Shown: positions 458 through 31,312 of the stretch, piece by piece | Layout of the letters: each line of letters opens with the position of its first letter | Position numbering within the stretch: position 1 is the stretch's first letter | IMG/VR virus record: IMGVR_UViG_3300005611_000007 | Span: 32,001-96,000 of that record | Strand: one strand, 5' to 3' | DNA: 64,000 bases | From: a virus | Lineage: Duplodnaviria > Caudoviricetes | Translations under genes and position numbers: made by a program | The notes under the pieces: generated by a model | What the model was told of the DNA's origin: nothing | What the model saw: only the letters and a program-made list of their open reading frames with translations | Databases searched by the model: none

Positions 458-665
458 CTACTACCCACGCATAATTGGTTGTAATCCAGTCCTCTAGGCA
501 GTCTTCAAACGACCAGTTTTTGTCCACTTCTTCTTTACCAAACTTTTTACACATCTTCTCATACCACCAAGGATAGTATTCTTTTCTGATATCATCCTCT
601 GATACTGTTACAATAGACGTTCCTTCTCCTGGGTATGCCAGTTCATCATAAGAAAAATATCTCAT
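450..665 (-). CDS. hypothetical protein
   Basis: 71-aa ORF; ATGA overlap with the upstream ORF. Confidence 0.65.
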   Translation of the reverse strand: MRYFSYDELAYPGEGTSIVTVSEDDIRKEYYPWWYEKMCKKFGKEEVDKNWSFEDCLEDWITTNYAWVVDE

Positions 666-1051
666 CCTCGCCTCTTTCCAGTGGTTGGATCATTAGCGTC
701 TTCTTTAGATAGTACCTGTAGACCACCTTTGTTATACGCTTGACCGACAACATATTGAGAACTATACATCAGTTTTGTCTCTCTGTCAACTGATTTATTC
801 GTTTGAATCGGTACAATTTTGTTACTGAGAGGAATTTGGTCGGGGATGCTGGATTCGAACCAACGACCTGACGCTCCCAAAGCGCCCGCTCTACCAGACT
901 GAGCCAATCCCCGTTTATCTGCATGAACACCCATCTTACGAAGCCATTTATCATGTTCGATATCGGCTTGTAATTGACGTTTGGTCTTTTTAGATTTACG
1001 TTTACGAGTGGATGTTGTTGTCATCCACGGTCCCACAAGATGCATACTCAT
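662..1051 (-). CDS. basic hypothetical protein with a tRNA-Pro gene nested in frame
   Basis: GGAG SD, ATGA coupling to next gene, MHLVGPWMTT and AYNKGGLQV ends resemble a T4-like phage family. Confidence 0.7.
   Translation of the reverse strand: MSMHLVGPWMTTTSTRKRKSKKTKRQLQADIEHDKWLRKMGVHADKRGLAQSGRAGALGASGRWFESSIPDQIPLSNKIVPIQTNKSVDRETKLMYSSQYVVGQAYNKGGLQVLSKEDANDPTTGKRRG
837..913 (-). tRNA. tRNA-Pro(TGG)
   Basis: CGGGGAT/ATCCCCG acceptor, GCTC/GAGC D-stem, loop TTTGGGA, TTCGAAT T-loop, encoded CCA. Confidence 0.95.
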
Positions 1052-1065
1052 ATCATCTCCAAAAA

Positions 1066-1139
1066 TGGTGCTCCCACACAGAATCGAACTGCGAATTGAT
1101 GATTACAAATCAACTGTTATACCGTTTAACTATAGGAGC
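1066..1139 (-). tRNA. tRNA-Thr(TGT)
   Basis: GCTCCTA/TGGGAGC acceptor, loop TTTGTAA, TTCGATT, CCA; one U-U mismatch in the anticodon stem. Confidence 0.9.
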
Positions 1140-1143
1140 GTAT

Positions 1144-1218
1144 TGGCTCCTGGAGAGGGATTCGAACCCCCGACCGGGCGGTTAACAGCCGCCAGCTCTA
1201 CCACTGAGCTATCCAGGA
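1144..1218 (-). tRNA. tRNA-Asn(GTT)
   Basis: TCCTGGA/TCCAGGA acceptor, GGCGG-CTGTTAA-CCGCC anticodon arm, TTCGAAT, CCA. Confidence 0.95.
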
Positions 1219-1227
1219 ATAAATTCA

Positions 1228-1317
1228 TTAAGAGAACGCTACCATGTACATTAGGATAAGTGCCATCAGACAAGAGAAAGCAGTAAACTCGACCAACATC
1301 TTCAGAGCATTCAACAT
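1228..1317 (-). CDS. 29-aa hydrophobic peptide (MLNALKMLVEFTAFSCLMALILMYMVAFS)
   Basis: translated by hand; AAGGAG SD directly behind an early promoter. Confidence 0.5.
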   Translation of the reverse strand: MLNALKMLVEFTAFSCLMALILMYMVAFS

Positions 1318-1375
1318 CGTTTCTCTCCTTCGTTCATCATGTTTATATCATACCAAAAGAATTAATTTTTGTCAA
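1318..1375 (-). promoter_or_regulatory. early sigma70-type promoter cassette, family B
   Basis: TTGACA-17-TATGAT then ATAAACATGATGAACGAAGGAG. Confidence 0.85.
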
Positions 1376-30320: not shown

Positions 30321-31312
30321 TACACTTTTCTCCATTCATTAAATTTTAACATAGCACTTAGATCTGAATATGAGTTATTATATATAATTTTCTCGACACT
30401 GTATCCAGTCAAAACCATATCATTGATATCTTTACCATAGAGATTATTCGGCCAGATACAAACAGTATAATTGTTTCTTATCATTCTGTCAAGTAAATTA
30501 CAAATAGTTTTATTTCTAGGTTGATTATCAAAAACGTAAATAGTGTTTTTTGGTAAAATCTCCGTGGCTTTCTTCATGTCAGCACCACTGACAGCAACTG
30601 CATTAGACAAAAATAAACTATCAATAGGACCTTCTACACATACAACTTTTTTCTTTAAATTAATCCGTTCCAATCCATATATCATAGGTTCATCTTCACG
30701 AAGTCGAATAGTTATATATCTAAGAGGATTTTTATCAATCGCTCTCATAGTAAATCCTACTATATCATTATTTTTTGAATAAAATGGTAATACGATCCTA
30801 CCTTCGTTAGTCTTAATTCGATTCTTATATTTCTCTACTACCTCTGTAATTCTTGAGACATCATCAATATAGTAGATGTATTTTAATTTATAATCTGGTA
30901 GTTTTCTACTTTTACAATATAGTACTGCCGGATGATTTACATCTAGATTTGTGATATTTTCGATAAAATCTGGAAGGTCTTCGATACTTTTTGTTTCAAA
31001 TTTAGGTTTAAAATCGAAAGATTTTTTCTCAAATTTTTTTCCAAATTTTTCTAATTTATATTGTTGATATAGAGAAGAATCAAGTTTTTCTATCAACTTA
31101 TCTAATCCCATAGAAATTCCACAGTTATGACACTTCAACATCATACTGTTTTTATGTTGAAGAAGATAACCACGGGCTTTATTAGGATTAGAAGCCGAAT
31201 CACCACAAATAGGACAACGAAAATTAGCGACAAAGGGATTTGTCTGCTTAACTTTCCATTTATCTAATTTTGGCGAAATAAGACCTGCGTATTTTGTGTC
31301 AATCCAAATCAT
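30320..31312 (-). CDS. 61: DNA primase (T4 gp61)
   Basis: NFRCPICGDS..KARG, CHNC, EGPIDS, DNQPRN, KDIND. Confidence 0.93.
   Translation of the reverse strand: MIWIDTKYAGLISPKLDKWKVKQTNPFVANFRCPICGDSASNPNKARGYLLQHKNSMMLKCHNCGISMGLDKLIEKLDSSLYQQYKLEKFGKKFEKKSFDFKPKFETKSIEDLPDFIENITNLDVNHPAVLYCKSRKLPDYKLKYIYYIDDVSRITEVVEKYKNRIKTNEGRIVLPFYSKNNDIVGFTMRAIDKNPLRYITIRLREDEPMIYGLERINLKKKVVCVEGPIDSLFLSNAVAVSGADMKKATEILPKNTIYVFDNQPRNKTICNLLDRMIRNNYTVCIWPNNLYGKDINDMVLTGYSVEKIIYNNSYSDLSAMLKFNEWRKV

What the first reader, a model, noticed from the sequence alone, without database searches (positions are those of the whole stretch)
662..1051. Intact tRNA-Pro gene nested in frame, same strand, within a protein-coding gene
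Seen: a 77-nt cloverleaf with CCA starts exactly at codon 47 and reads RGLAQSGRAGALGASGRWFESSIPD without a stop. The ORF has its own SD and an ATGA overlap with the next gene. Both flanks resemble a T4-like protein family (from memory). Inference: dual-coding DNA in which tRNA maturation destroys the mRNA, so translation and tRNA release compete. This could be a regulatory switch or a tolerated insertion in a variable linker.
Basis: partly seen in the sequence, partly recalled or inferred. Interest (0 to 1): 0.75.

Follow-up and report, generated by a model that had tools for sequence, protein, structure and literature searches.

The report
Working tRNA gene nested inside phage gene
An intact proline tRNA gene lies in frame inside the flexible middle of a small conserved gene of a marine T4-like phage; relatives carry other, swappable tRNAs at the same spot with the reading frame always open, so the same DNA appears to be kept both as tRNA and as protein code.

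Summary
A 129-codon ORF (662-1051, minus strand) contains a complete tRNA-Pro(UGG) with encoded CCA (837-913). It starts at codon 47 and has no stop.

It is not a chance ORF. The two flanks are the N and C blocks of a large unnamed family of small proteins in aquatic T4-like phages (Melnitz gp124, Mosig_00174; 359 clusters at 50% identity).

- In 216 loci, 160 of them seeded on the C block alone, both blocks always share one open frame.
- 99 of these loci carry one or two same-strand tRNAs between the blocks (Pro, Trp, Ala, Arg, Arg+Pro, Arg+Ala, Cys+Pro).
- The flanks evolve as protein (pN/pS about 0.3). The tRNA evolves as RNA (all stem positions paired, 12 of 21 pairs compensatory).
- The tRNA-coded residues fall in a predicted disordered linker.
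- tRNA content changed at least 17 times on the family tree.
- Close relatives carry an HNH endonuclease plus this same tRNA-Pro allele inside stubs of an older allele, still in frame. The window's tRNA therefore looks like a homing-cassette replacement.

A regulatory switch is untested. No RNA or protein data could be obtained.

This scan noted nested tRNAs in small phage genes, at least once in this family, and HNH-plus-tRNA cassettes before on other DNA. The only published parallel I found is selC inside selB.

The parts
1347..1375 (-). Sigma-70-like promoter (TTGACA, 17 nt, TG-TATGAT) upstream of the RNA/protein gene string
   Evidence: 11 of 12 matches, with extended -10 TG; sequence. This is a consensus match only. 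Its function is inferred.
1228..1317 (-). 29-codon hydrophobic small ORF with an AAGGAG Shine-Dalgarno. In relatives its stop overlaps the start of the nested-tRNA gene.
   Evidence: Read. It is conserved in L086 and L012.
1144..1218 (-). tRNA-Asn(GUU), free-standing
   Evidence: 67.2 bits. It is part of an insertion of about 176 nt that is absent from L086 and L012.
1066..1139 (-). tRNA-Thr(UGU), free-standing, ending 14 nt before the ATG of the ORF
   Evidence: 60.7 bits.
1057..1060 (-). Shine-Dalgarno GGAG, 5 nt before the start codon
   Evidence: Sequence.
914..1051 (-). N block of the host protein (codons 1-46): conserved MHL..TTT..basic run, then a helix ending in ..KWLRKMG
   Evidence: Codon-position diversity is 0.18/0.15/0.42 and pN/pS is 0.30. 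AF2 predicts a helix at residues 24-39 with pLDDT about 85.
837..913 (-). tRNA-Pro(UGG), 77 nt with encoded CCA ('allele B'). It is read in phase 0 as codons 47-71 plus two bases of codon 72.
   Evidence: Covariation. Flat codon-position diversity. The coded residues have pLDDT below 50. Allele comparison.
662..836 (-). C part of the host protein (..IPLSNKI.. to ..GQAYNKGGLQVLS..DP.TGKRRG) with its stop codon
   Evidence: pN/pS is 0.30. There is no conserved internal start.
662..665 (-). ATGA stop/start overlap with the next ORF (450-665, 71 aa)

Best explanation
The stretch is a real protein gene whose disordered middle is a working tRNA-Pro gene on the same strand. The gene belongs to a large, unnamed family of small proteins (about 110-150 aa) of aquatic T4-like phages. 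These have a basic, helical N block and a conserved C block joined by a variable linker.

Shown by comparison:
- Selection keeps the N and C blocks as protein.
- Selection keeps the tRNA as a cloverleaf RNA.
- The frame through the tRNA stays open.

The C block generally has no start codon of its own. It can therefore only be made by ribosomes that read through the tRNA sequence on an uncut transcript. The tRNA can only be released by cutting that transcript (inferred: RNase P at the 5' end and 3' trimming to the encoded CCA). Each RNA molecule therefore ends as one product or the other.

The linker acts as a permissive docking site. tRNAs there are exchanged precisely between co-infecting relatives. 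In the window's lineage, the present tRNA-Pro allele most likely arrived with an HNH homing-endonuclease cassette that overwrote an older tRNA-Pro allele. The nuclease gene and the leftover stubs were then lost, with the frame open at every observed stage. Whether the competition between processing and translation is used for regulation is not known.
For: Anatomy.

Family:
- 224 near-length homologs.
- 359 representatives at 50% identity.
- Cultured members are Melnitz gp124, which carries a nested tRNA-Trp, and Mosig_00174, which has none.

Sample unbiased for continuity: 160 loci were seeded on the C block alone. Among the 86 unique sequences with both blocks, none was broken. Over all loci, 216 of 216 were continuous, 99 carried tRNAs, and all 114 nested tRNAs were on the sense strand.

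Control with free-standing tRNAs from the same loci:
- They are open in about 21% of phases, and 18 of 42 are closed in all three.
- 11 of 16 free tRNA-Arg(UCU) have no open phase, against 7 of 7 nested ones open.

Protein selection on the flanks: third-position diversity is 0.42 against 0.13-0.23 at positions 1 and 2, and pN/pS is 0.24-0.30.

RNA selection on the tRNA:
- Codon-position diversity is flat, and pS is far lower than in the flanks.
- All 294 stem cells are paired, 12 of 21 pairs show compensatory change, and the covariation score is 0.517 against 0.176 when shuffled.

No independent start for the C block: 15 of 57 unique genes have no in-frame ATG, GTG or TTG after the tRNA. Only 11 have one with an SD-like motif before the conserved core.

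Disordered linker: AF2 gives pLDDT below 50 for residues 48-72.

Exchange:
- At least 17 changes of tRNA content on a 68-row tree, and three sets of identical flanks with different content.
- L099 (Trp) and L102 (Pro) differ by an exact swap of 77 nt for 77 nt at the tRNA borders.

HNH cassette:
- L086, L088 and P0124, and in another clade P0125, have this layout, all in one frame: 5' stub of allele A, then TATAAATA, SD and a 139-codon HNH ORF, then complete allele B, then the 3' stub of allele A.
- L085 has allele B with an 18-nt 3' stub and no HNH. The window has clean allele B, and the 18 nt lie between CCGACCAA direct repeats.
- The same 77-nt allele B is identical in L024, whose flanks are strongly diverged.
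- A 70%-identical HNH sits directly 5' of a free tRNA-Pro in an ordinary tRNA array (L244).
Against: - There is no direct evidence that the tRNA is matured or charged, or that the full-length protein exists.
- The protein has no known function or fold, and the AF2 model is weak overall (mean pLDDT 61.6).
- The order of events in the HNH series is inferred from present-day variants. The window's allele could instead be an older endonuclease-resistant allele that the cassette picked up.
- The tree rests on only 78 columns, so the count of 17 changes is approximate.
- Why tRNAs keep landing in this one gene is not explained. In many clades the nested tRNA is the only tRNA within 3-6 kb.
Confidence: 0.75

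Rival explanations
1. Evolved regulatory switch. The nesting is adaptive in itself. Ribosome traffic through the tRNA blocks its folding, and tRNA excision destroys the mRNA, so the phage sets the ratio of tRNA to protein (and to the coupled downstream genes) by translation rate. The non-stop N fragments are cleared by the phage's own tmRNA.
For: The two fates of one transcript exclude each other, which follows from the anatomy. The stop/start ATGA coupling to the next gene resembles the selB-selC model of Mukai 2021. Same-strand nesting holds in 114 of 114 cases.
Against: The identity of the tRNA is freely exchanged. More than half of the sampled loci and most family clusters have no tRNA at all. 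The tRNA can be delivered by a selfish HNH cassette. Nothing links the protein to any particular tRNA. All neighbouring genes run in the same direction, so same-strand nesting is not diagnostic.
Confidence: 0.18
2. Chance or annotation artefact. The ORF is not a gene, or the real gene starts after the tRNA, and the open frame across the tRNA is accidental.
For: tRNAs are GC-rich and sometimes lack stops in one phase. This tRNA is open in two phases. Gene callers often extend ORFs over tRNAs.
Against: N and C blocks share one frame in 216 of 216 loci, including tRNA-free members where they are simply contiguous. Both blocks show purifying selection at the codon level. The C block usually has no start of its own. 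The chance expectation is about 0.07 per insertion (one third times 0.21), set against at least eight distinct insert types.
Confidence: 0.02
3. The tRNA is a decaying relic, a pseudogene frozen inside a coding region. Only the protein is functional.
For: Some relatives carry damaged nested tRNAs that are still in frame: L095 has a 12-nt deletion, and P0020 has lost almost all of it. No expression data exist.
Against: The window's tRNA scores 61.9 bits. Across 14 distinct nested tRNA-Pro sequences every stem position pairs, and 12 of 21 pairs show compensatory change. The anticodon loop, the T loop and the CCA end are kept. Synonymous-site divergence is suppressed relative to the flanks, which is the opposite of a relic evolving only as a linker.
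Confidence: 0.05

Closest known systems
selC (tRNA-Sec) nested inside the selB ORF of Alphaproteobacteria (Mukai 2021, Int J Mol Sci 22:4605, PMC8124441; read)
   Same: A complete tRNA gene lies on the coding strand inside an uninterrupted ORF. The tRNA sequence is translated into amino acids. The ORF stop overlaps the next start codon. The proposed consequence is that folding and processing of the tRNA lowers the yield of full-length protein. Both cases are bioinformatic predictions only.
   Different: In selB the tRNA forms a C-terminal extension. It is always tRNA-Sec, the very tRNA that SelB binds, and the host is a bacterium. Here the tRNA is internal, between two conserved blocks that both need read-through. 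At least five tRNA identities, including tandem pairs, are exchanged, and there is no known link between the protein and any tRNA. The host is a phage, and a homing-endonuclease cassette takes part.
Free-standing homing endonucleases in phage tRNA gene clusters (T4 SegB, 'intronless homing'). This comparison rests on my own knowledge and on earlier notes of this scan (which cite PMC2330249). I did not read the paper here.
   Same: In relatives (L086, L088, P0124, P0125) an HNH endonuclease gene sits next to a tRNA gene. It is flanked by remnants of the allele it replaced. The same cassette occurs in diverged genetic backgrounds.
   Different: The window itself has no endonuclease gene, only the cassette-type tRNA allele. 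The cassette sits inside a protein ORF and keeps that ORF open. The HNH ORF has no stop of its own there and runs on through the tRNA into the host C block, whereas in the ordinary array L244 it stops inside the tRNA. Cleavage specificity is untested.
Methylophilales phage Melnitz gp124 / tRNA-Trp (MZ577097; Buchholz et al. 2022, PMC9004378)
   Same: It is the same protein family, with a nested same-strand tRNA in the same linker, in a cultured phage.
   Different: The tRNA is Trp(CCA), read in phase 2. It follows an extra ..LDEYIDY..GK.K.PK linker motif that the window's protein lacks. The passages of the paper that I searched list the tRNA-Trp but do not mention that it lies inside a CDS.

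Membership tests
tRNA gene nested in a protein ORF (selC-in-selB type, Mukai 2021) | Complete tRNA on the coding strand inside an uninterrupted ORF | tested here: met
tRNA gene nested in a protein ORF (selC-in-selB type, Mukai 2021) | [quoted passage not shown] | tested here: met
   ATGA at 662-665.
tRNA gene nested in a protein ORF (selC-in-selB type, Mukai 2021) | The tRNA forms a C-terminal extension of a protein that works with that same tRNA | tested here: not met
   The tRNA is internal, at codons 47-72 of 129. Its identity varies among Pro, Trp, Ala, Arg and Cys, and many members have none.
tRNA gene nested in a protein ORF (selC-in-selB type, Mukai 2021) | Both the mature tRNA and the full-length protein are made | not testable with these tools
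Support comes only from comparative signatures of selection.
Bacterial-type elongator tRNA-Pro(UGG) | Cloverleaf that passes the Rfam tRNA model | tested here: met
   61.9 bits against a gathering score of 29. ARAGORN places anticodon UGG at position 35.
Bacterial-type elongator tRNA-Pro(UGG) | Stems maintained by compensatory change among homologs | tested here: met
   All 294 cells are paired and 12 of 21 pairs change on both sides. None of 500 shuffles reaches the covariation score.
Bacterial-type elongator tRNA-Pro(UGG) | Acceptor and anticodon features expected for ProRS (C1-G72, A73, G35, G36; from my own knowledge of E. coli ProRS) and an encoded CCA | tested here: met
   Read directly from the sequence. 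Charging itself is not testable here.
Homing-endonuclease plus replacement-tRNA cassette | An endonuclease gene next to the tRNA in the window | tested here: not met
   The window ORF is 129 aa with no HNH. Only relatives carry it.
Homing-endonuclease plus replacement-tRNA cassette | The same tRNA allele is found next to an HNH gene, between stubs of a replaced allele, in close relatives and in diverged backgrounds | tested here: met
   PHROG 1271 HNH at E 1.4e-13. Junctions. P0125 is in another clade. L024 carries an identical 77-nt allele.
Homing-endonuclease plus replacement-tRNA cassette | The enzyme cuts the cassette-free allele and spares its own | not testable with these tools
   This needs an in vitro cleavage assay or phage crosses.
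Host protein family (unnamed; Melnitz gp124 / Mosig_00174 type) | N block and C block both present, in this order, in one ORF | tested here: met
Host protein family (unnamed; Melnitz gp124 / Mosig_00174 type) | Assignment to a curated family or a known fold | tested here: not met
   No hit in Pfam, PHROGs, NCBIfam, PDB sequences or the ESM Atlas.

The most novel reading that the evidence does not exclude
The linker of this phage protein family is a dedicated docking and expression site for mobile tRNA cassettes, where ribosome passage gates tRNA release. While the message is heavily translated the tRNA stays unfolded. When translation falters, for example for lack of that tRNA, the tRNA folds and is cut out. 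This would give a self-correcting supply of tRNA, with the phage's own tmRNA clearing the stop-less N fragments.
Probability: 0.15. Interest if true: 0.9.

Novelty: new variant of a known kind. Interest (0 to 1): 0.72.

Why it matters
- **Dual coding.** The same 77 bases serve as a structured RNA gene and as protein code. This is rare, and so far the only published case I found is one bioinformatic report in bacteria (selC in selB).
- **Recurrence under selection.** Here the arrangement recurs across hundreds of abundant ocean and freshwater phage sequences, with interchangeable tRNAs. That gives a natural series for asking how two unrelated constraints share one sequence, and how translation and RNA processing compete on one transcript.
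- **Route of tRNA spread.** It also shows how phage tRNA genes can move: precise cassette exchange, in one lineage driven by a homing endonuclease, into a site that supplies a promoter and tolerates the insert.
- **Annotation.** Pipelines that forbid tRNA-CDS overlaps would wrongly delete one of the two genes.
- **Testability.** One family member (Melnitz gp124) is in a cultured phage-host pair, so the question can be tested directly.

Tried and rejected
- **RNA evidence.** There are no expression data.
- **Contigs of the long HNH-bearing proteins.** P0125 could therefore be read only as protein, and its DNA junctions are inferred.
- **Protein function.** PHROGs, Pfam and NCBIfam gave no hits. 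A PDB profile search gave only noise at E 0.15 or worse. The best ESM Atlas score was 0.84, against unnamed clusters. AF2 reached a mean pLDDT of 61.6, too low for a meaningful fold search, so none was run.
- **Literature.** Searches found no description of tRNAs nested in phage ORFs. One search failed on a term that was too short and was not repeated.
- **Chance ORF.** Rejected, see the rival explanations.
- **C block started independently.** Rejected.
- **Nesting as a side effect of lying in a tRNA array.** Rejected. In many clades the nested tRNA is the only tRNA within 3-6 kb. In this genome only tRNA-Pro, of five tRNAs, lies in a long ORF.
- **Biased protein search.** The first protein search could only return continuous ORFs. 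This was corrected by the DNA samples seeded on the C block.

Full report
**1. The observation**

On the minus strand, ARAGORN finds tRNA-Pro(UGG) at 837-913, tRNA-Thr at 1066-1139 and tRNA-Asn at 1144-1218. Rfam's tRNA model scores them 61.9, 60.7 and 67.2 bits against a gathering score of 29.

The ORF 662-1051 (minus strand, 129 aa) starts at 1051, so base 913 is the first base of codon 47. Codons 47-71 and two bases of codon 72 are the tRNA, including an encoded CCA, and there is no stop. A GGAG lies five bases before the ATG. The stop overlaps the next ORF's ATG as ATGA.

A sigma-70-like promoter (1375-1347) and a 29-codon hydrophobic ORF precede the two free tRNAs. The likely transcript is therefore: promoter, small ORF, tRNA-Asn, tRNA-Thr, nested gene, coupled downstream genes. 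This order of transcription is inferred.

The window is bases 32001-96000 of a 126.9-kb IMG/VR virus record. Of that record's five tRNAs, only tRNA-Pro lies in a long open frame.

**2. The ORF is a real gene of a large family**

- tblastn links the C part to Melnitz gp124 (58% identity, E 5e-11) and weakly to Mosig_00174. Both phages are Kyanoviridae.
- Melnitz gp124 itself contains a same-strand tRNA, but it is tRNA-Trp. Mosig's homolog has none.
- The protein database holds 224 near-length homologs.
- A profile built from tRNA-free members finds 359 representatives at 50% identity, all small proteins.
- The alignment shows a conserved N block, a conserved C block, and a middle that differs by clade and often reads like a translated tRNA.
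- No curated family or solved structure matches.

**3. Removing the sampling bias**

Protein databases can only hold continuous ORFs. I therefore fetched DNA seeded on the C block alone: 80 metagenome loci and 80 IMG/VR loci. I then searched all three forward frames with separate HMMs for the N and C blocks.

- Wherever both blocks were present they lay in one open frame: 86 unique sequences, none broken.
- With the first set of loci added, 216 of 216 were continuous. Of these, 99 carried one or two tRNAs between the blocks, and all 114 tRNAs were on the sense strand.
- By unique sequence, the types were: Pro(UGG) read in phase 0; Ala(UGC) in phase 1; Trp(CCA) in phase 2 and once in phase 0; Arg(UCU) in phase 1; and the tandem pairs Arg+Pro, Arg+Ala and Cys+Pro.
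- Loci where the N-block HMM failed but upstream sequence was available had diverged N blocks in the same ORF and no tRNA.

As a control, I took the free-standing tRNAs of the same loci. They are open in about 21% of phases, and 18 of 42 are closed in all three. Of the free tRNA-Arg(UCU), 11 of 16 have no open phase, while 7 of 7 nested ones are open. A random insert would keep the gene whole about 7% of the time.

**4. Two kinds of selection on one stretch**

| Measure | N and C blocks | tRNA segment |
|---|---|---|
| Diversity by codon position, Pro set | about 0.15-0.23 at positions 1-2, 0.42 at position 3 | 0.17 / 0.14 / 0.20 (flat) |
| pN/pS | 0.24-0.30 (Pro and Ala sets) | not informative |
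| pS, Ala set | 0.36-0.44 | 0.05 |
| pS, Pro set | 0.56-0.58 | 0.26 |

- Across 14 distinct nested tRNA-Pro sequences, all 294 stem cells are standard pairs and 12 of 21 pairs change on both sides. The covariation score is 0.517 against 0.176 for shuffles, and sliding the partner columns destroys the signal.
- All nested tRNAs encode CCA.
- The C block cannot in general be started independently. Of 57 unique tRNA-bearing genes, 15 have no in-frame ATG, GTG or TTG after the tRNA. Only 11 have one with an SD-like motif before the conserved core.
- AlphaFold2, run on a 20-sequence alignment, is weak overall (mean pLDDT 61.6). It gives a confident helix at residues 24-39 and a moderately confident hairpin at 100-115. 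It puts residues 48-72, the tRNA-coded part, below pLDDT 50.

The tRNA-coded peptide thus behaves as a passive, disordered linker.

**5. The tRNAs are exchanged**

- On a tree of the joined N and C blocks (68 rows, only 78 columns, so the resolution is coarse), tRNA content changes at least 17 times. Three sets of identical flanks carry different content: Trp against Pro, Arg+Pro against Arg, and Pro against a deleted Pro.
- L099 and L102 are identical up to the tRNA borders and differ by an exact replacement of 77 nt with 77 nt.
- In many clades the nested tRNA is the only tRNA within 3-6 kb. The gene is therefore not simply caught inside an array.

**6. A homing-endonuclease cassette delivers the window's allele**

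The closest relatives carry a different tRNA-Pro(UGG), which I call allele A. The window carries allele B, and the two differ by compensatory changes in all stems.

- **Cassette-bearing forms.** In L086, L088 and P0124 the gene reads, all in one 296-299-codon frame: N block; 12 nt of allele A; a TATAAATA late-promoter-like box, an SD and a 139-codon HNH ORF (PHROG 1271, E 1.4e-13); complete allele B; 11 nt; the 3' end of allele A; C block. P0125 shows the same cassette in a different clade, with a different break point in the resident tRNA and a different C-block type.
- **Allele B without the nuclease.** L024 carries a 77-nt allele B identical to that of L086, plus a 3' stub, in strongly diverged flanks. 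L085 is nearly identical to the window in the compared stretches and has allele B with an 18-nt stub and no HNH. The window lacks exactly those 18 nt, which lie between CCGACCAA direct repeats.
- **Shared junction.** All allele-B contexts share AAA directly before the tRNA.
- **Related nuclease elsewhere.** A 70%-identical HNH sits directly 5' of a free tRNA-Pro in an ordinary tRNA array of another phage. There its ORF stops inside the tRNA (L244).

The simplest series is: allele A, then cassette insertion, then loss of the HNH gene, then loss of the stub. The host frame is open at every observed stage. The direction of this series is an inference.

**7. How it most likely works**

Shown by comparison: protein-level selection on both blocks, RNA-level selection on the tRNA, and an obligatorily open frame.

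Inferred:
- One transcript serves as mRNA and as pre-tRNA.
- Full-length protein needs an uncut RNA, and the tRNA needs cutting at 913 and 837, so the two fates exclude each other on any one molecule.
- The linker is a permissive site where mobile or recombining tRNA cassettes gain a promoter at no cost.

A purpose-built switch is possible but not favoured (about 0.15-0.2). The tRNAs are interchangeable, they are often absent, and they are partly selfish in origin.

**8. Comparison with what is known**

- The only published parallel I found is selC nested in selB (Mukai 2021, read). That paper calls itself the first report of a tRNA gene nested in a protein ORF in bacteria.
- Text searches found no report of the phage case.
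- The passages of the Melnitz paper that I searched list its tRNA-Trp without noting the overlap.
- The cassette part resembles free-standing homing endonucleases of phage tRNA clusters such as T4 SegB. This comparison rests on my own knowledge and on earlier notes of this scan.

This scan had already noted nested tRNAs in small phage genes on other genomes. At least one of those notes (e1-5876011) probably concerns the same family. It had also noted HNH-plus-tRNA cassettes. I treated these notes as leads and re-derived everything here. What this window adds is that the two phenomena meet in one gene.

**9. Verdict**

The finding is a new variant of a known kind. Interest is 0.72.

Noticed in passing
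window 1052-1227 (minus strand): tRNA-Asn, tRNA-Thr and a fresh Shine-Dalgarno form an insertion of about 176 nt relative to L086 and L012. In those relatives the stop of the small upstream ORF overlaps the ATG of the nested-tRNA gene (TAATG). The insert sits exactly at that junction, between short ATGA repeats, and restores a start context.
   Followed up: partly
window 1228-1317 (minus strand): A 29-codon, very hydrophobic ORF with an AAGGAG SD lies directly behind the promoter-like site. It is conserved in L086 and L012, and its function is unknown.
   Followed up: no
window 761-789 (minus strand): A second sigma-70-like site (TTGACA, 17 nt, TATAGT; 11 of 12 matches) lies inside the C-block coding region, downstream of the tRNA. 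It could drive the downstream genes once the tRNA has been cut out, or it could be chance: 6 sites were found against 5.3 expected.
   Followed up: no
L086:988-1404 and P0125: In the nested context the HNH ORF has no stop of its own. It runs on through tRNA-Pro into the host C block, so the nuclease would carry the C block as a tail. In the ordinary tRNA array L244, its 70%-identical relative stops inside the tRNA.
   Followed up: partly
P0102 (157 aa family member): One homolog has an extra segment after its nested tRNA that matches the tRNA isopentenyltransferase family (PF01715, precomputed). It could be a chimeric assembly or another tRNA-related insert in the same linker.
   Followed up: no
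L095:893-1258 and P0020: These are damaged nested tRNAs that are still in frame. L095 has a 12-nt deletion in tRNA-Pro with flanks identical to L015. P0020 (100 aa) keeps only the first and last few codons of the tRNA.
   Followed up: partly
Family representatives P0126-P0273: The superfamily shares the N block but has at least three alternative C-terminal cores: ..GQAYNKGG..TGKRR, ..GIATMHKSNAVPV..MRR and ..APAYNKG.Y.V..GKK. By a motif heuristic, nested tRNA-like stretches occur in only a few percent of the 50%-identity clusters.
   Followed up: partly
Genome G000, about 1.3-2.3 kb beyond the window start (minus strand): Earlier notes of this scan report a two-piece tmRNA and a tRNA-Ile(UAU) with an oversized extra arm in the same RNA-gene cluster. 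My ARAGORN run confirms tRNA-Ile (96 nt) and tRNA-Arg at 31040-31217 of the record. A link between the tmRNA and the stop-less fragments left by tRNA excision is pure speculation.
   Followed up: no
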